Shown here: positions 1,852-64,000 of the stretch, piece after piece
Position numbering within the stretch: the stretch's first letter is position 1
How the letters are laid out: every line of letters starts with the position of its first letter
NCBI GenBank assembly: GCA_001823065.1
Contig: MHTJ01000002.1
Span: 156,320 to 220,319, forward strand
Length of the DNA: 64,000 nt
Direction of reading: 5' to 3'
Origin: Candidatus Vogelbacteria bacterium RIFOXYD1_FULL_44_32
Lineage (GTDB): Bacteria > Patescibacteriota > Minisyncoccia > Phycocordibacterales > XYD1-FULL-46-19
Position numbers and translations under genes: made by a program
Notes under the pieces: model-generated
The model's database searches: none
Seen by the model: the letters and a program-made list of their open reading frames with translations, nothing else
What the model was told of the DNA's origin: nothing

Positions 1852-1904
1852 GGCGGAGGGGGAGAGATTCGAACTCTCGATGCCCTTGCGGCCTGGCGGT
1901 TTTT
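1852..1904 (-). other. tRNA-like 3' half (outer): anticodon 3' stem, long variable arm, T-arm, acceptor 3' strand CCCCTCC plus discriminator G.
   Basis: On the minus strand: AAAACCGCC AGGCCGCAAGGGCATC GAGAGTTCGAATCTCTC CCCCTCC G CC. It follows the second copy of the 40-nt repeat. Confidence 0.5.
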
Positions 1905-1939
1905 CCGCCCGAGGCGGACCCGCCTCGGGCGGGCAAGAC
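1900..1939. repeat. 40-nt direct repeat copy 2 (tttttccgcccGaggcggacccgcctCgggcgggcaagac). It forms an 11-bp hairpin.
   Basis: Matches 2325-2364 except for two substitutions that keep the hairpin base pairs (a/g and t/c). Confidence 0.8.
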
Positions 1940-1953
1940 ACAATTATCTTCCG

Positions 1954-2042
1954 TGCGGAGGGGGTGGGATTCGAACCCACGGTCCCGTTACCGAGACTCT
2001 TGTTTTCAAGACAAGCGCGATCGGCCTCTCTGCCACCCCTCC
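1954..2042 (-). tRNA. tRNA-Ser (anticodon TGA), complete class II tRNA with a long variable arm.
   Basis: Acceptor GGAGGGG/CCCCTCC with discriminator G. Anticodon stem-loop CTTGT CTTGAAA ACAAG. Variable arm GAGTCTCGGTAACGGGAC. T-loop GTGGGTTCGAATCCCAC. Confidence 0.85.
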
Positions 2043-2078
2043 GCACGAAAGACAATTTAATTCTAAAGTATCAGATTT

Positions 2079-2321
2079 TTACAGACCTAGCCACTTTATT
2101 CTTTCTCGACCTTTACCACTTTTTAAAAACAATTCTTCTTTTCGGGCAGAGGTCTTGGTTTCAAATGCTTCGTAATAAACCAATTTCCAAGGTCGTCCAG
2201 CTTTGGTGCTTGTTACTTTTTCGCTATTGTGTTGCCTAATTCTTTCAGGTAAATCACCGCAAGATCCCTTGTATAATTTACCAGTGGTTTGGCTTTTTAG
2301 AATATATACATAATAGAACAT
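2079..2321 (-). CDS. GIY-YIG nuclease family protein (YhbQ/UPF0213-like small endonuclease).
   Basis: YYVYILKSQTTGKLYKGSCGDLPERIRQHN ... YYEAF matches the GIY-YIG core. The ATG sits 3 nt after repeat copy 1. Confidence 0.8.
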   Translation of the reverse strand: MFYYVYILKSQTTGKLYKGSCGDLPERIRQHNSEKVTSTKAGRPWKLVYYEAFETKTSARKEELFLKSGKGRERIKWLGL

Positions 2322-2324
2322 AAG

Positions 2325-2364
2325 TTTTTCCGCCCAAGGCGGACCCGCCTTGGGCGGGCAAGAC
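2325..2364. repeat. 40-nt direct repeat copy 1 (tttttccgcccAaggcggacccgcctTgggcgggcaagac). Same hairpin.
   Basis: Lies between the outer tRNA 5' half and the GIY-YIG ORF. On the minus strand it begins GTCTTG, which is the anticodon-stem end plus the anticodon-loop start. Confidence 0.8.
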
Positions 2365-2394
2365 CGGTGCGATCAACCACTCTGCCACCCCTCC
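2359..2394 (-). other. tRNA-Ser-like 5' half (outer): acceptor, D-arm, anticodon 5' stem, and loop nucleotides CTTG.
   Basis: On the minus strand: GGAGGGG TG GCAGAGTGGTTGATCGC A CCGGT CTTG. The segment CGCACCGGTCTTG is identical to canonical tRNA-Ser(UGA). Confidence 0.55.
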
Positions 2395-2822: not shown

Positions 2823-3218
2823 ATGCGAATGTTGGGAATTGACTATGGGACGAAAAAAATTGGCTTGGCTTTGTCCGACGAGCGGGGGCGTTTTGCCTCA
2901 CCATATTCCGTGATTGCGACCAATCAGAAGACACTGAAAACCGTGGTGGCTATTTGTCATCAGGAGGAAATTACTAAAATTGTAATTGGTAAATCGCTAA
3001 ACTATGAGGGGACACCAAATGCGGTTCAAGCCGAGGCGGAAAAGTTTGCCAAGACACTAGGTGAAGCGACCGGATTGCCCATTGCCTTTGAATTGGAAGT
3101 GTTGACTACCAAAGAAGCGGAACGGGATATTGGGCGGGATGAGCTGACCGATGCCCGGGCCGCCGCCCTAATTTTAAAAAGTTATATTGATAGACAACAA
3201 AATGACGGAAATAAATAG
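2823..3218 (+). CDS. ruvX: Holliday-junction resolvase-like protein YqgF/RuvX (putative pre-16S rRNA nuclease).
   Basis: MLGIDYGTKKIGLALSD ... matches the YqgF N-terminus. Length 131 aa. Confidence 0.85.
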   Translation: MRMLGIDYGTKKIGLALSDERGRFASPYSVIATNQKTLKTVVAICHQEEITKIVIGKSLNYEGTPNAVQAEAEKFAKTLGEATGLPIAFELEVLTTKEAERDIGRDELTDARAAALILKSYIDRQQNDGNK

Positions 3219-3819
3219 TGAAGAAAGGAAACAAAAAAATAGTTGGAGCGACTCTATCCGCCAATGGTCGGTGGTCCATGCCGATGAAAAATCTACATCG
3301 TGGTGGTTGGGGGCGTTGTCTTTTACTGAAAGTTCATTTTTTCCCATCCCGCCAGATGTAATGCTGGTAGCTATATTGACCGCTAGCCGGCGTTGGGCGT
3401 ATTACGCTTTGGTCACCACTCTCGGTTCGGTGGCTGGCGGTGTGGCAGGGTATTTTATCGGCCACTTTTTCTTTGATCTGGTGGGGGTAAAAATTATTGC
3501 GTTTTATCATTTACAAGACGAAATGCAAAAGGTGGGCGAGCTGTATGCGGATAATGCTTTCTGGTCTATTTTTGTTGCGGCCTTCACGCCTATACCTTAT
3601 AAAGTTTTCACTATTTCGGCTGGGTTTTTCAAAATTAATTTTTTAACTTTTATTTTCGCTTCCATTATCGGTCGGGGGTTAAGATTTTTTATCGTTGGTT
3701 ATTTAATGAAAATGTTTGGGCATCTTATGGGTGAGACAATCTATAAATATTTTAATATTTTCAGTCTGCTGGTGGCGGTAGCCATTGTCGGTGGAATATT
3801 ACTTTTGTATCTACTTTAG
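3187..3819 (+). CDS. DedA/YqaA-family (VTT domain) membrane protein.
   Basis: FFPIPPDVMLVAILTA ... GYFIG matches the DedA/YqaA core. The ORF overlaps ruvX by 32 nt, so the true start is probably internal. Confidence 0.55.
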   Translation: MIDNKMTEINSEERKQKNSWSDSIRQWSVVHADEKSTSWWLGALSFTESSFFPIPPDVMLVAILTASRRWAYYALVTTLGSVAGGVAGYFIGHFFFDLVGVKIIAFYHLQDEMQKVGELYADNAFWSIFVAAFTPIPYKVFTISAGFFKINFLTFIFASIIGRGLRFFIVGYLMKMFGHLMGETIYKYFNIFSLLVAVAIVGGILLLYLL

Positions 3820-3860
3820 ATTGAAAATCGGTCTAAATTGGGCTAATCTAATAGACGATT

Positions 3861-3912
3861 GCCCCTGTAGTTAAATGGATATAACTGCGGACTTCCCCGC
3901 CTGCCAAAGCAT
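3861..3912 (+). other. tRNA-like 5' half (outer), paralogous to the 5' part of the adjacent tRNA-Arg.
   Basis: GCCCCTG TA GTTA AATGGATA TAAC TGCGG ACTTCC... It has no T-arm. It differs from the inner tRNA at acceptor position 4 (T to C). Confidence 0.45.
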
Positions 3913-3984
3913 GCCTCTGTAGTTCAATGGATAGAACACCGGACTTCTAAGCCGGTTATGTGGGTTCGATTCCCCCCAGAGGCA
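3913..3984 (+). tRNA. tRNA-Arg (anticodon TCT).
   Basis: GCCTCTG TA GTTC AATGGATA GAAC A CCGGA CTTCTAA GCCGG TTAT GTGGG TTCGATT CCCCC CAGAGGC A. Confidence 0.85.
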
Positions 3985-3986
3985 CA

Positions 3987-4048
3987 ATTAAATAAAGGCA
4001 TGGCGGGCAGGTAAGCCCGAGATGGGGGTTCGATTCCTGGCGGGGGCA
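3987..4048 (+). other. tRNA-like 3' half (outer): T-loop GGGGGTTCGATTCC and acceptor 3' strand CGGGGGC plus discriminator A.
   Basis: The 3' strand CGGGGGC pairs with the outer 5' GCCCCTG (7 bp including one G.U). The substitutions are compensatory relative to the inner tRNA. Confidence 0.45.
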
Positions 4049-4088
4049 CCCGAAATATTTTCTTTAGATAGGTGTATTATAGTAAGAC

Positions 4089-4652
4089 ATGCCCACATAT
4101 GATGGCCTATCCGACGAAGCTTTGGCGTTAGAAACTCAAGGCGGCAATAAAGACGCCTATGGCGAGCTAGTTCGCCGTTTTGAAAAAAAGATTGGCCGCT
4201 ATGCGCGAAAATTTGTTGCCGACAGCGATGCAATCGACGACTTGGTCCAAGATGTTTTTATCAAGGCCTATATCAATATCAATAGTTTTGATGTCGGTAA
4301 AAGATTTTCGCCGTGGCTCTATCGCATTGCCCACAATGAATTTGTTAATGCTTTACGGAAGAAAAAATCCATCCCGTTTTCCTTTTTTGAATACGATGTC
4401 CTTTTACCTAAACTCTCTGATAGTTTAAAAGCATCTGATTTGGCCGAAACTGAGGAAATAAAAAGATTAGTTGATTCATCGGTCCAAGATTTGCCCCCAA
4501 AATATCGGGAACCGTTGCTCCTTTTTTATTTTGAGGAACTGGATTATGAGGCGATTGCTGATGTGCTCGCTATCCCGGTGGCAACTGTGGGGGTGCGTCT
4601 TATGCGCGGGCGCGATTTACTAAAGAAAAAACTGCATAATATTAATAATTAA
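4089..4652 (+). CDS. RNA polymerase sigma-70 factor, ECF subfamily.
   Basis: Region 2 DLVQDVFIKAY ... PWLYRIAHNEFVNALRK and region 4 YEAIADVLAIPVATVGVRLMRGRDLLKK. Confidence 0.85.
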   Translation: MPTYDGLSDEALALETQGGNKDAYGELVRRFEKKIGRYARKFVADSDAIDDLVQDVFIKAYININSFDVGKRFSPWLYRIAHNEFVNALRKKKSIPFSFFEYDVLLPKLSDSLKASDLAETEEIKRLVDSSVQDLPPKYREPLLLFYFEELDYEAIADVLAIPVATVGVRLMRGRDLLKKKLHNINN

Positions 4653-4658
4653 AAGCTT

Positions 4659-5444
4659 ATGAATAATAACAACCCAAAAACACCACTAAATATTGCCGAG
4701 GTGATTGTAGCCAAAATAAATCTGGCCGAGATCAAAACTAAACCCAAACTCTTTTTTATGGCCAAGAGTGGGTTGGTGGTGGCGATGGTGATTTTTCTCT
4801 TTCTCTTTGCCTTGTATGCGGTCAGTCTTATTTCTTTTATTCTGCGGTCTAATGGCATCTTGGGGGCGCCAAACCTGGGCTGGTGGGGGGTGGGTCTAGT
4901 GCTCAATTCTTTACCGTGGTTACTTATTTTGCTGGCAGTTTTGGCGATTATTATTTTAGAAATCACAGTAGGGCATTTCCGCTTTGCTTACCGGCGACCA
5001 GCTTTATACTCACTATTAGGAGTAATTATATTGGTGATTGGAGGCAGTGTGCTCGCCGAACAAATGGAAGTACATGCCAGGTTATACCGCCGAGCGGTGG
5101 ACAATCGGTTGCCAATATTTACGCCAATTTATCGTGACTACGATATGATGCCGATTGTGGGCCACCATCGTGGTCAAGTGGAAAAACTAGAAGAAACAGG
5201 CTTTTGGTTGCGGGAAAATAAAACTGCTAAAAAATTTGAAGTGGTGATTTTACCGGCGACTCGTCTGATGATACCGACGGGGGAAGAAATAGAGGTTGGG
5301 GAGCGGGTAATTGTGTTGGGTGACACTGATGGTGAGGTTATAGAAGCGAGGGCGGTCCTAGTGCCCCCAGACGATTTGCCAGATTTTTCGCGTCCAGCTA
5401 TGAGACGGCAAATGATGGAGCAAAGATTTGAAATAAAAGACTAA
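4659..5444 (+). CDS. Membrane protein immediately downstream of the ECF sigma factor (possible anti-sigma factor).
   Basis: Multiple transmembrane helices. The gene starts 7 nt after the sigma-factor stop. No conserved motif. Confidence 0.35.
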   Translation: MNNNNPKTPLNIAEVIVAKINLAEIKTKPKLFFMAKSGLVVAMVIFLFLFALYAVSLISFILRSNGILGAPNLGWWGVGLVLNSLPWLLILLAVLAIIILEITVGHFRFAYRRPALYSLLGVIILVIGGSVLAEQMEVHARLYRRAVDNRLPIFTPIYRDYDMMPIVGHHRGQVEKLEETGFWLRENKTAKKFEVVILPATRLMIPTGEEIEVGERVIVLGDTDGEVIEARAVLVPPDDLPDFSRPAMRRQMMEQRFEIKD

Positions 5445-5532
5445 ACCGGTTTGTAATACTAAATTAGATGCCGGAGGTGTCTGGACGCTTAGCGCGAGCG
5501 TCTTAAATATTAAAATTAATTTAATTAAAAAA

Positions 5533-6006
5533 ATGAAACACAAAAAATGGTTGGCTTATAGTTTGATGCCCGCTTTGGCTCTGTTTATTTTAGGAGCTGA
5601 CACAGCCGCGGCTCAAGGTTTTGGTTTTGGGCTAGGGGGTAAAAATGTTGATCCAACCGAAGCGGCGGACCGACTACAAGAGATGTTTGCTAGCCAGGCC
5701 AAAGTCTTAGGTTTGGAAGTGTCGGACATAAAAGAAGCGTGGGCTGAAGGTAAAACAATTAAAGAACTGGCCGATGAGAAAGGTATAGATCTAAACACCC
5801 TGCGTGACAAAATGAAAGCGCAGAGGTTGGTTGATATGAAAGCACACCTACAGGCTTTAGTAGACAAGGGGGTGATTACCCAAACTCAAGCCAACAAACG
5901 TTTGGAGTTTATGCAAAAAGCAACAGATAAAATAAAAGATAAGGCTGAAAAGACTGGTGGGCGGGGCTGGAAAATGATGGGCGGGCCGATGATGGGATGG
6001 TTTTAG
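5533..6006 (+). CDS. Secreted hypothetical protein with a signal peptide.
   Basis: N-terminal hydrophobic segment ending AAAQG. Charged helical remainder. Terminator follows. Confidence 0.4.
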   Translation: MKHKKWLAYSLMPALALFILGADTAAAQGFGFGLGGKNVDPTEAADRLQEMFASQAKVLGLEVSDIKEAWAEGKTIKELADEKGIDLNTLRDKMKAQRLVDMKAHLQALVDKGVITQTQANKRLEFMQKATDKIKDKAEKTGGRGWKMMGGPMMGWF

Positions 6007-6022
6007 ATTTTATTAGATTTTT

Positions 6023-6062
6023 AAAACCCACCCGAGACACGGCCGTGTCTCGGGTGGGTTTT
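6023..6062 (+). terminator. Rho-independent terminator.
   Basis: aaaacccacccgagacacggccgtgtctcgggtgggtttt is a perfect hairpin with a T-run. Confidence 0.8.
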
Positions 6063-6104
6063 ACTTGAAAAAGACCAAAAATGTGCTAAAGTTTTGCCAT
6101 TGAT

Positions 6105-7650: not shown

Positions 7651-7939
7651 CAAAAACAAAAACCACTTTTGTGGTTTTTGTTTTTGTGCCCGAGAGCAAG
7701 CCAACTGCTTGGCTTGCGTAGAGGAGTCGAAAGACTTTTCGTTACCGAGCACCTGAAAAAGGTGCCTCGGTCGAAAAGTACCCGCCCCCGTAGGGGGAGA
7801 GTCCTCTCGCTAGGCAAAAGTTGTAGCCGAGTCCTCCTTCCATTTGCATTTTATTTCAGATATGGTATAATATTAAGTAGATGAACTTGGGGTTTCGGAT
7901 TCTGTCCTATCCTAGTAAGGGTGGAGAAAGGAGTCAAAA

Positions 7940-8953: not shown

Positions 8954-9212
8954 CACGAAAAAGCCCGCGCAAGCGGGTTTTTGCGTGGGCGACCAAGCAC
9001 GTGAACTGCTTCACGTGCGTTCGGGAATCGAAAAGGCTGAGCTTGTCGCAACGAGCCGAGCACCAATAAGGGAATCATTAGTGCTCGGCGAAGTGAGACG
9101 CGAAGCCTGTACCGTTCCTGTAAGGAAAGATTCCCGATGGGCACCTCAAATGTACAATTTCAATTTATTTTGTTAGTAATATTCTAGACCGCAAGCTAGA
9201 AACAGAGAGGAG

Positions 9213-62709: not shown

Positions 62710-64000
<1,291 letters not shown>

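What the first reader, a model, noticed from the sequence alone, without database searches (positions are those of the whole stretch)
3861..4050. tRNA-Arg(TCT) flanked by tRNA-like 5' and 3' halves whose acceptor stems co-vary
Upstream of the complete tRNA-Arg is a 52-nt fragment that is a close paralog of its 5' half, but with acceptor GCCCCTG instead of GCCTCTG. Downstream is a fragment with a T-loop and a 3' acceptor strand CGGGGGC-A instead of CAGAGGC-A. The T-to-C change at position 4 is compensated by an A-to-G change at position 69. The two outer halves therefore form their own 7-bp acceptor stem, distinct from the inner tRNA. GC-rich segments on the inner flanks (CCCGCC/TGCC and GGCGGG/CAGG, with AAAG(G)CATG on both sides) could pair. 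This is the same nested architecture as the tRNA-Ser locus, but without an ORF. I could not define clean splice junctions or a canonical outer anticodon arm by eye.
Basis: seen in the sequence. Interest (0 to 1): 0.7.

Follow-up and report, generated by a model that had tools for sequence, protein, structure and literature searches.

The report
Split tRNA-Arg gene holding replacement copy
A resident arginine-tRNA gene of this Patescibacterium was split in its anticodon loop by a 116-base hairpin-armed insert that carries a complete tRNA with the same anticodon. It is one example of what looks like an undescribed way in which small mobile cassettes occupy tRNA genes in these bacteria without killing the host.

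Summary
A complete tRNA-Arg(UCU) at 3913-3984 sits between the 5' part (3861-3895, tRNA positions 1-35) and the 3' part (4012-4048, positions 36-73) of a second tRNA-Arg(UCU). The insert is bounded by 10-bp GC-rich arms that pair. Four independent assemblies show the same arrangement.

The outer halves are not a working intron-containing tRNA. Related genomes carry one uninterrupted tRNA of the outer type at exactly this site. Joined at 35/36, the outer gene has a broken anticodon stem (2 of 5 pairs) and T stem (3 of 5). The only SNP among samples hits the universally conserved T54 of the outer half. There is no group I intron and no bulge-helix-bulge motif.

The architecture recurs. There are four further nested tRNA-Arg loci, and L042 has identical arms. 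The neighbouring tRNA-Ser locus belongs to a widespread cassette found in 76 of 80 loci: tRNA 5' fragment, covarying double hairpin, SLX1-like GIY-YIG nuclease, then a complete tRNA.

Best reading: this is the footprint of a tRNA-gene-targeting cassette that brings its own replacement tRNA. The inner gene works and the outer halves are remnants. The insertion mechanism is inferred, not shown.

The parts
3861..3895 (+). Outer tRNA-Arg(UCU) 5' part, tRNA positions 1-35 (acceptor 5' strand, D arm, anticodon-stem 5' strand, C32 U33 U34 C35). Remnant of the resident gene.
   Evidence: 86% identical to the inner 5' half. It is 35/35 identical to the intact tRNA in L103 and 34/35 to that in L104, after the same upstream flank GGGCTAATCTAATAGAC.ATT.
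3896..3905 (+). 5' arm of the insert, CCCGCCTGCC.
   Evidence: Pairs with 3997-4007 in the minimum-energy fold. Read on the minus strand, the arms are identical to those of the nested tRNA-Arg(gcg) in L042.
3906..3913 (+). AAAGCATG, left copy of the short direct repeat that flanks the inner tRNA. Its last G is base 1 of the inner tRNA.
   Evidence: Read directly from the sequence. L042 has the analogous repeat GCTTA / GCTTT.
3913..3984 (+). Inner, complete tRNA-Arg(UCU). Presumed to be the functional gene.
   Evidence: Called by ARAGORN. Rfam tRNA model, 65.8 bits. Minimum-energy fold is a cloverleaf.
3985..3996 (+). Trailer of the inner tRNA, CAATTAAATAAA. It overlaps the start of the right repeat copy AAAGGCATG at 3994-4002.
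   Evidence: Read directly from the sequence.
3997..4007 (+). 3' arm of the insert, GGCA(T)GGCGGG.
4008..4011 (+). CAGG, the last four bases of the insert before the outer tRNA resumes.
   Evidence: Read from the sequence. CAGG also follows the single hairpin in the tRNA-Arg(gcg) 5' fragment of L062.
4012..4048 (+). Outer tRNA-Arg 3' part, positions 36-73. It is a mosaic: positions 52-72 match the orthologs, and positions 36-51 are a divergent patch that breaks the anticodon and T stems.
   Evidence: Positions 52-72 are 19-20/21 identical to L103 and L104, but positions 36-51 only 8-9/16. The right flank CCCGAAATATT... is shared with L005 and L006. In sample L004 the only SNP is T54->G in this part.
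1854..2394 (-). Neighbouring tRNA-Ser locus with the same nested plan, on the minus strand:
- outer 5' part, 2394-2359
- double hairpin, 2358-2329
- GIY-YIG ORF, 2321-2079
- inner tRNA-Ser(UGA), 2042-1955, with a 15-bp leader/trailer helix
- GTCTTG plus second double hairpin, 1939-1904
- outer 3' part, 1903-1854
   Evidence: (D5, I9).

Best explanation
The locus is the footprint of a small mobile cassette that landed in the resident tRNA-Arg(UCU) gene.

A 116-bp insert (3896-4011) split that gene between anticodon-loop positions 35 and 36. The insert is a complete tRNA-Arg(UCU) gene held in the loop of a 10-bp GC-rich hairpin. Because the insert supplies a tRNA with the same anticodon, the disruption is tolerated.

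The inner gene is the working one. It is probably transcribed from the resident promoter, with the outer 5' part as its leader. The arms then form an RNA helix that keeps the inner pre-tRNA from mis-pairing with the homologous outer halves. RNase P and RNase Z would release the inner tRNA, and the outer pieces would be discarded.

The outer 3' part is a mosaic. Positions 36-51 are foreign and positions 52-73 are resident. This fits acquisition of the whole nested unit by recombination, with the outer tRNA halves acting as homology arms and the right-hand crossover in the T loop.

The cassette belongs to a wider set of hairpin-bounded elements in Patescibacteria that bring a replacement tRNA. 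Many of them encode an 80-aa GIY-YIG nuclease that is only a catalytic domain and resembles SLX1. Such an enzyme plausibly cuts hairpins or cruciforms extruded at tRNA-gene loops. One copy lies 1.5 kb away in the tRNA-Ser locus.

Shown: the anatomy, the derived state relative to orthologs, the degeneracy of the outer gene, and recurrence of the architecture.

Inferred: the insertion mechanism, a role for the nuclease, co-transcription, and processing.
For: 1. Orthologous sites. The same DedA neighbour and the same upstream flank are followed by one uninterrupted tRNA-Arg(tct) in L100 and in L104/L105. In L103 they are followed by a 5' fragment (positions 1-19), a hairpin, and then a complete tRNA. 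The outer 5' part here equals the L103 and L104 tRNA at 35/35 and 34/35 positions.
2. The outer gene is degenerate: anticodon stem 2 of 5, T stem 2 Watson-Crick plus 1 G.U of 5. The orthologs have 4 of 5 and 5 of 5. The only population SNP falls on the outer T54.
3. Recurrence among tRNA-Arg genes.
   - L042: inner tRNA-Arg(gcg) inside an outer tRNA-Arg(gcg) split at 23/24, with identical arms CCTGCCCGCC...GCTTT GGCAGGCGGG and a duplicated loop sequence. The outer gene rejoins into a perfect tRNA.
   - L078 (gcg, T loop), L099 (cct, T loop) and L093 (tct, 35/36 plus T loop). In each the inner and outer anticodons are the same and 10-15-bp inverted repeats flank the inner tRNA.
4. Empty copies of the same hairpin occur elsewhere: L104:3857, inside a double hairpin in L036, and L024.
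5. The Ser locus and 80 GIY-YIG loci.
   - 76 of 80 have a tRNA 8-85 nt downstream of the nuclease gene.
   - 69 of 80 have a double hairpin upstream. Its outer stem pairs are 47/47 paired with 2-4 pair types, against a shuffle maximum of 31-42.
   - The hairpin sits inside an exact copy of the 5' part of the downstream tRNA, at positions 8/9, 12/13, 13/14, 21/22 or 35/36.
   - Two-hairpin forms with cargo exist, as in L023. ORF-less forms exist in L037, L062 and L047.
6. The nuclease matches UPF0213 and SLX1 catalytic domains only. Its catalytic residues are invariant in 31 homologs.
Against: - No empty-site allele of this locus and no excised form was seen. All four assemblies of this species carry the insert, so mobility is inferred from comparison between species only.
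- No nuclease or recombinase gene lies inside the Arg insert.
- The arms in L042 and in the window are in opposite orientation relative to the tRNAs. This fits a hairpin-first, tRNA-second history or symmetric arms better than a rigid cassette.
- No promoter-like site was detected upstream of either copy with the sigma-70 consensus scan, so co-transcription is unproven.
- The outer 5' part shows no decay at all. This is unexpected for an old pseudogene unless the event is recent or the part is retained as a leader.
Confidence: 0.62

Rival explanations
1. The outer halves are a functional tRNA gene with a tRNA-containing intron. RNase P and RNase Z excise the inner tRNA. The two outer pieces are then either ligated (for example by RtcB) or work as a two-piece split tRNA held together by the 10-bp helix, as in Nanoarchaeum split tRNAs.
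For: - The outer acceptor stem is intact, and the arm helix brings the two break points together in the predicted fold.
- In L042 and L023 the rejoined outer gene is a perfect tRNA.
- Position 35/36 is where Patescibacterial group I introns sit (PMC13011429).
Against: - The rejoined outer Arg gene has 2 of 5 anticodon-stem pairs and 3 of 5 T-stem pairs, and no 7-nt anticodon loop.
- In L093 the outer parts cannot be rejoined at all, because positions 36-56 are missing.
- No Rfam group I intron hit was found even at E <= 10. Base 35 is C, not the U that group I 5' splice sites require. The insert is only 116 nt.
- The junctions lie in a C.C mismatch and at a helix end, not in 3-nt bulges separated by 4 bp.
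- The inner tRNA already supplies the same anticodon.
- There is a SNP at the universally conserved T54 of the outer part.
- Bacteria are not known to have a tRNA-splicing endonuclease (established knowledge).
Confidence: 0.04
2. The locus is the remnant of a classical site-specific integrative island (attL/attR in a tRNA gene) whose cargo was later deleted. The complete tRNA would be the attL hybrid, and the outer 3' part the displaced attR copy.
For: - In L006, a relative whose sigma factor is 88% identical, a CBASS island (CD-NTase and Cap15) lies between a tRNA 3' end identical to the outer 3' end and a partial repeat of that end. This sits just upstream of the same sigma-factor gene.
- L104 has a 20-nt direct repeat of the tRNA 3' end around a roughly 200-nt element.
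- The mosaic joint in the T loop of the outer 3' part looks like a crossover point.
- An archaeal precedent exists: a tRNA-Thr 5' fragment, a recombinase element, then a complete tRNA (PMC3293823).
Against: - A single integration leaves one fragment, not both a 5' part and a 3' part around a complete gene.
- No integrase gene is present in the window near the locus or in the L006 island.
- The break at 35/36 is bounded by inverted arms, not by a direct att repeat.
- The same arms occur at position 23/24 of a different tRNA-Arg in L042.
Confidence: 0.2
3. The locus arose by local duplication and rearrangement, through replication slippage or unequal recombination between tRNA copies, followed by drift. 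No mobile element would be involved.
For: - L095 shows plain tandem 69-nt repeats of a tRNA-Arg 5' half.
- tRNA fragments occur upstream of tRNA-Arg(tcg) in unrelated metagenome contigs L092-L098.
Against: - The inner and outer copies differ at 5 of 35 and 9 of 37 positions and have different acceptor stems, while the outer 5' part is identical to the orthologs. The inner copy is therefore not a recent copy of the outer.
- The arms are shared with L042 in a different tRNA and genome.
- The same-anticodon nesting recurs at loop positions in at least five loci.
Confidence: 0.1

Closest known systems
Mobile elements that integrate into tRNA genes and leave partial tRNA copies (classical att sites in tRNA genes). 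Includes the archaeal case of a tRNA-Thr 5' fragment, a 1.8-kb recombinase element and a complete tRNA-Thr in Caldiarchaeum (PMC3293823).
   Same: A resident tRNA gene is the target. Fragments of it remain at the borders, and a complete tRNA is preserved so the host survives.
   Different: - Here the element supplies a whole tRNA gene rather than only the displaced part.
- It sits inside the anticodon loop, with both halves of the old gene left outside.
- It is bounded by inverted GC-rich arms instead of a direct att repeat.
- It is only 116 bp and has no recombinase.
Free-standing GIY-YIG homing endonucleases in tRNA gene clusters, such as phage T4 SegB (mentioned in PMC13096335).
   Same: A GIY-YIG nuclease gene lies next to tRNA genes, and spread is presumed to occur by break-induced gene conversion.
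   Different: - The Patescibacterial protein is an 80-aa catalytic domain of the UPF0213/SLX1 type with no DNA-binding domain.
- It is always preceded by a covarying double hairpin set inside a copy of the tRNA 5' part.
- The Arg locus itself has no ORF.
Group I introns at position 35/36 of Patescibacterial tRNA-Asn and tRNA-Asp (Nakagawa et al. 2026, PMC13011429).
   Same: Same phylum and the same insertion position, 35/36 in the anticodon loop.
   Different: - There is no group I ribozyme (no Rfam hit, 116 nt).
- Base 35 is C, or G in the Ser locus, instead of U.
- The insert is itself a tRNA gene.
Archaeal intron-containing and split tRNAs (bulge-helix-bulge introns; Nanoarchaeum split tRNAs with GC-rich complementary leaders).
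   Same: A GC-rich helix juxtaposes the two tRNA parts, and the breaks lie in tRNA loops.
   Different: - There is no bulge-helix-bulge motif.
- The host is bacterial, and bacteria are not known to have the splicing endonuclease.
- The outer tRNA is degenerate.
- A complete same-anticodon tRNA is present inside.
Small palindromic repeat elements (REP/BIME and MITE-like hairpins).
   Same: Short GC-rich hairpins recur at many sites, including empty copies (L104:3857, L036, L024).
   Different: Here they mark break points inside tRNA gene copies and can carry a tRNA gene in their loop. No RAYT or transposase is associated with them.

Membership tests
Group I intron in a tRNA anticodon loop | Match to the group I ribozyme core (Rfam RF00028 or related models). 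| tested here: not met
   No Intron_gpI hit in 3700-4200 at E <= 10, nor in the whole window at gathering score. The insert is 116 nt, of which 72 are a tRNA.
Group I intron in a tRNA anticodon loop | U as the last exon base at the 5' splice site and G as the last intron base. | tested here: not met
   The last exon base is C35 (G35 in the Ser locus). The requirement for U is stated in PMC13011429. The last insert base is G, which alone is uninformative.
Archaeal-type (bulge-helix-bulge) tRNA intron or split tRNA | Two 3-nt bulges separated by a 4-bp helix at the exon-intron junctions. | tested here: not met
   In the fold of the junction region the 5' junction lies at a C.C mismatch and the 3' junction at the helix end (third sequence).
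Archaeal-type (bulge-helix-bulge) tRNA intron or split tRNA | The joined exons give a canonical tRNA. | tested here: not met
   Anticodon stem 2 of 5, T stem 3 of 5, no 7-nt anticodon loop.
Archaeal-type (bulge-helix-bulge) tRNA intron or split tRNA | A splicing endonuclease (EndA) and a ligase are encoded by the organism. | not tested
   Only 64 kb of the genome is available, and its ORFs were not all scanned.
Site-specific integrative element at a tRNA gene | An integrase or recombinase gene within the element. | tested here: not met
   The insert has no ORF. The neighbouring genes are RuvX, a VTT/DedA protein and a sigma-70 factor.
Site-specific integrative element at a tRNA gene | Direct att repeats derived from the tRNA at both borders. 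| tested here: inconclusive
   Only an 8-9-nt direct repeat, AAAG(G)CATG, flanks the inner tRNA, and it is not tRNA-derived. The mosaic joint in the outer T loop, and the L006 and L104 sites with 17-20-nt repeats of the tRNA 3' end, show that such events do occur at this tRNA in relatives.
Homing-endonuclease cassette (free-standing GIY-YIG) | An endonuclease gene within or next to the inserted DNA. | tested here: not met
   There is none in the Arg insert. One GIY-YIG gene, the only one in the window, lies at 2079-2321 in the Ser locus.
Homing-endonuclease cassette (free-standing GIY-YIG) | Presence/absence polymorphism with co-conversion of flanking sequence. | tested here: inconclusive
   Between species the insert is present here and absent in L100 and L104. 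The mosaic outer 3' part is compatible with a conversion tract. Within the species no empty site was seen.
Patescibacterial hairpin-bounded cassette that brings a replacement tRNA (defined here) | A complete tRNA inside or next to fragment(s) of a tRNA with the same anticodon. The break lies in a tRNA loop and abuts a GC-rich hairpin. | tested here: met
   Window Arg locus. Arms identical to those of L042. The same plan is seen in L078, L093, L099, L103, the window Ser locus and the GIY-YIG loci.

The most novel reading that the evidence does not exclude
Patescibacteria may harbour a previously undescribed class of tRNA-gene-targeting mobile cassettes. They would insert at the D, anticodon or T loops of a tRNA gene and carry a complete tRNA of the same anticodon, so that they compensate for their own damage. 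They are bounded by covarying GC-rich hairpins and would be mobilised by a minimal SLX1-like GIY-YIG nuclease that cuts hairpin or cruciform DNA. They would spread between genomes using the tRNA halves as homology arms. The Arg locus would be an ORF-less member, mobilised in trans or left as a fossil.
Probability: 0.45. Interest if true: 0.8.

Novelty: new variant of a known kind. Interest (0 to 1): 0.6.

Why it matters
If the reading is right, tRNA genes in these reduced genomes, which mostly hold one gene per anticodon, are colonised by elements that bring a spare copy of the gene they destroy.

- This would explain how a parasite can sit in an essential single-copy gene.
- It would explain why tRNA fragments and assembly breaks cluster at Patescibacterial tRNA genes.
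- It would explain how tRNA genes are exchanged horizontally.
- It warns annotators that tRNA halves in these genomes are not evidence of bacterial split tRNAs or new intron types.
- The pairing of a double hairpin with a minimal GIY-YIG nuclease is a testable candidate for a structure-guided DNA-cutting system.

Tried and rejected
- **Group I intron.** No Rfam hit, wrong splice-site base, too small.
- **Bulge-helix-bulge intron or split tRNA.** No motif, and the outer stems are broken.
- **Outer gene as tRNA-Arg(CCU).** Adding one extra C to the 5' part lets ARAGORN call a cct anticodon with a shifted register and two bases at position 26. I rejected this because orthologs with the same 5' part read CTTCTAA.
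- **Assembly artefact.** Rejected: four independent assemblies agree.
- **Known RNA family for the double hairpin or for the elements after tRNA-Leu and tRNA-His.** None found in Rfam.
- **Leader/trailer helices as a general property of cassette tRNAs.** Not so. Median duplex energy is -5.7 kcal/mol for cassette tRNAs and -6.9 for the others, p = 0.23. Only the nested tRNAs have such helices.
- **A tRNA interrupted only by a double hairpin, as a possible intermediate.** Among 85 double hairpins only one gave an intact tRNA on removal, and it is the right border of a two-hairpin element.
- **Phage origin of the GIY-YIG cassette.** Only 1 weak relative was found in IMG/VR.
- **Promoter and terminator scan of the locus.** Found nothing.
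- **Literature.** Searches found no description of nested bacterial tRNAs or of the association between GIY-YIG, tRNA-Ser and the hairpin.
- **Contigs L093 and L099.** They carry no nuclease or recombinase ORFs.

Full report
**What is there.**

The window comes from a Candidatus Vogelbacteria-like Patescibacterium. Its GIY-YIG protein is 100% identical to A2571_00920 of Vogelbacteria RIFOXYD1_FULL_44_32.

Between a VTT/DedA gene (3187-3819) and a sigma-70 factor gene (4089-4652), ARAGORN and Rfam find one complete tRNA-Arg(tct) at 3913-3984, scoring 65.8 bits. It is flanked by paralogous halves. Positions 3860-3895 are 86% identical to its 5' half, and 4012-4049 are 76% identical to its 3' half.

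The outer pieces break exactly between tRNA positions 35 and 36 (CTTC | insert | TAA), so the outer gene was also a UCU tRNA. The 116-nt insert reads as follows:
- CCCGCCTGCC, the 5' arm
- AAAGCATG
- the inner tRNA
- CAATTAAATAAA
- GGCA(T)GGCGGG, the 3' arm
- CAGG

AAAGCATG and AAAGGCATG form a direct repeat on either side of the inner tRNA.

The minimum-energy fold of 3861-4048 consists of the outer acceptor stem, the 10-bp arm helix and the inner cloverleaf. Three further assemblies from other samples carry the same sequence: L001 and L002 are 100% identical and L004 has one SNP.

**What the outer halves are.**

I fetched orthologous sites through the DedA neighbour. After the same upstream flank (GGGCTAATCTAATAGAC.ATT) the relatives show:
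- **L100** (DedA 85% identical): one uninterrupted tRNA-Arg(tct).
- **L104/L105** (65%): one uninterrupted tRNA-Arg(tct) whose first 35 nt match the window's outer 5' part at 34/35 positions and whose last 21 nt match at 20/21.
- **L103** (76%): a 5' fragment (positions 1-19), a hairpin, about 100 nt, and then a complete tRNA whose first 35 nt equal the outer 5' part exactly.

The outer halves are thus the resident gene and the inner tRNA is the newcomer. The acceptor-stem "co-variation" is the ordinary difference between two tRNA-Arg lineages.

Joined at 35/36, the outer gene has 2 of 5 anticodon-stem pairs and 3 of 5 T-stem pairs. The orthologs have 4 of 5 and 5 of 5. ARAGORN cannot give the joined gene a 7-nt anticodon loop, and it does not fold as a cloverleaf.

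The damage is concentrated in a patch at positions 36-51, which is 8-9/16 identical to the orthologs. Positions 1-35 and 52-72 are nearly identical to them. This mosaic is compatible with recombination joints at the insert and in the T loop.

The single SNP among samples changes the universally conserved T54 of the outer part. The Rfam searches of the region returned no match to a group I intron model. Base 35 is C rather than the U that group I introns require, and the junctions do not form a bulge-helix-bulge motif.

A spliced or split functional outer tRNA is therefore very unlikely.

**The architecture recurs.**

A metagenome scan for two Arg-type D arms 20-50 nt apart, together with the loci fetched for other reasons, gave further nested tRNA-Arg genes:
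- **L042:** an outer tRNA-Arg(gcg) is split at 23/24 by CCTGCCCGCC-GCTTA-[inner tRNA-Arg(gcg)]-GCTTT-GGCAGGCGGG, and the outer gene rejoins into a perfect tRNA. Its arms, and the GCTTT next to one of them, are identical to the window's arms read on the minus strand. In both loci the hairpin-loop sequence is duplicated on either side of the inner tRNA.
- **L078** (gcg) and **L099** (cct): the inner tRNA lies in the T loop of a tRNA with the same anticodon.
- **L093** (tct): the inner tRNA lies in a 13-bp hairpin abutting position 35/36. The outer 3' part begins only in the T loop, after a double hairpin, so the outer gene cannot be rebuilt.

Empty copies of the CCYGCCYGCC-type hairpin occur at L104:3857, inside another hairpin in L036, and in L024.

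**The tRNA-Ser neighbour and the GIY-YIG cassette.**

On the minus strand the Ser locus reads:
- outer 5' part, positions 1-35
- a 30-nt double hairpin
- an 80-aa GIY-YIG ORF
- a complete tRNA-Ser(tga) with a 15-bp leader/trailer helix
- GTCTTG plus a second double hairpin
- outer 3' part

Removing everything from the first to the second double hairpin restores a tRNA-Ser(tga).

A profile of the nuclease recovered 80 Patescibacterial loci.
- In 76 of them a tRNA follows the ORF within 8-85 nt. It is mostly tRNA-Ser of all four anticodons, with some tRNA-Tyr.
- In 69 of them a double hairpin precedes the ORF. Its two 6-bp stems covary: the outer pairs are 47/47 paired with 2-4 pair types, against a shuffle maximum of 31-42.
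- The hairpin sits inside an exact copy of the 5' part of the downstream tRNA, at position 8/9, 12/13, 13/14, 21/22 or 35/36.
- Two-hairpin elements with cargo exist. In L023 the right border is hairpin plus the rest of the tRNA.
- ORF-less forms exist in L037, L062 and L047.

The closest relative, L012/L100, has the one-hairpin form. This is explicable by deletion between the inner tRNA and the outer 3' part.

The protein is a bare catalytic domain of the UPF0213/SLX1 type with invariant catalytic residues. Rfam has no family for the hairpins. I found no paper describing this association.

**How it most likely works.**

Shown:
- the insert is derived
- it carries a same-anticodon tRNA
- the outer gene is degenerate
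- the plan is recurrent, is bounded by hairpins, and is often linked to an SLX1-like nuclease

Inferred:
- A structure-specific nuclease cuts hairpins or cruciforms at tRNA-gene loops.
- The cassette is copied in by recombination that uses tRNA sequence as homology, which would explain the mosaic outer 3' part.
- Only insertions that bring the same anticodon survive, because these genomes mostly have one gene per anticodon.
- The inner tRNA is transcribed through the outer 5' part.
- The arm helix insulates its folding.
- RNase P and RNase Z release it.

Weak points:
- No empty site or excised form was seen within the species.
- The Arg insert contains no enzyme gene.
- The arms are in opposite orientation relative to the tRNAs in L042 and in the window.
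- No promoter was detected.

**Comparison with what is known.**

The closest known kinds are listed below. This locus differs from each.
- **Integrative elements that leave tRNA fragments,** including the archaeal fragment-element-tRNA case (PMC3293823). Here a whole tRNA is nested inside a loop of its homolog.
- **Free-standing GIY-YIG homing endonucleases in tRNA clusters** (T4 SegB). Here the borders are hairpins and, in the related loci, the nuclease is minimal.
- **Group I introns at 35/36 in this phylum** (PMC13011429). Here there is no ribozyme.
- **Archaeal split or intron-containing tRNAs.** Here there is no splicing motif and the outer tRNA is degenerate.

**Verdict.**

The functional-intron interpretation is not supported. 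The locus is best read as an ORF-less footprint of a cassette family that targets tRNA genes and brings its own replacement tRNA. That family appears to be undescribed. I class it as a new variant of a known kind, with interest 0.6.

Noticed in passing
window 1854-2394 (minus strand); loci L012-L091: An 80-aa SLX1/UPF0213-like GIY-YIG gene is preceded by a covarying 30-nt double hairpin that sits inside a copy of the 5' part of the tRNA immediately downstream. The tRNA is mostly tRNA-Ser, sometimes Tyr, and in single loci Cys or Glu. The tRNA is present in 76 of 80 Patescibacterial loci and the hairpin in 69 of 80. I found no Rfam family and no paper.
   Followed up: yes
window 7652-7830 and 8955-9145 (+); L006:2606-2800; L104:3731-3940; L005:3720-4000; L076:1840-2000 and 2495-2608: A conserved structured element of about 150-230 nt lies directly after tRNA-Leu, tRNA-His, tRNA-Arg and tRNA-Ser genes. 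Its order is:
- a long perfect palindrome that starts within the tRNA 3' end
- the reverse complement of the acceptor 3' strand
- a covarying 9-bp hairpin with a G(C/T)AG loop
- the reverse complement of the T arm
- a conserved core (AAGGCTGAACTTATCGCA...GAAGCCTGTACC-hairpin)
- a direct repeat of the tRNA's T-loop and 3' end

The core is conserved, while the tRNA-matching segments change with the adjacent tRNA. No Rfam family matches. In L006 a CBASS island lies between the tRNA and the element. It may be the end of an island or a target-matching guide.
   Followed up: partly
L006:1-2830: In a relative whose sigma factor is 88% identical, a CD-NTase/Cap15 (CBASS) island is inserted between a tRNA-Arg 3' end and the sigma-factor gene. 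This is the position occupied by the nested Arg locus in the window. No integrase was seen.
   Followed up: partly
L008/L009/L010, about 4809-5879: In a relative whose sigma factor is 58% identical, a 356-aa reverse transcriptase (RVT_1) gene lies immediately upstream of the orthologous sigma-factor gene, and no tRNA was detected there.
   Followed up: no
L005 and L007 (contig starts); L101, L102 and L106 (contig ends): Contigs of close relatives break exactly inside or next to the tRNA-Arg gene. This suggests repeated tRNA sequence at this locus in those genomes too.
   Followed up: no
L092, L094, L096, L097, L098 (about 120 nt upstream of tRNA-Arg(tcg)); L095: In unrelated metagenome contigs a tRNA 5' fragment (acceptor, D arm and a variable pseudo-anticodon arm) lies between a good sigma-70 promoter and a complete tRNA-Arg(tcg). 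The arrangement is conserved across five contigs. L095 has tandem 69-nt repeats of a tRNA-Arg 5' half before the complete gene.
   Followed up: no
L047:440-700 (minus strand): A pseudo-copy of tRNA-Arg(gcg) is riddled with three hairpin insertions: at 12/13, at 21/22, and in place of the anticodon arm. It lies just upstream of the complete tRNA-Arg(gcg).
   Followed up: no
window 6022-6063: A perfect 21+21-nt palindrome with no loop lies between an ORF and tRNA-Val (repeat finder I5).
   Followed up: no
window 62712-64000: The 5' part of a 23S rRNA gene runs off the end of the window (Rfam, 916 bits). I did not examine it for the insertions that are common in this phylum.
   Followed up: no
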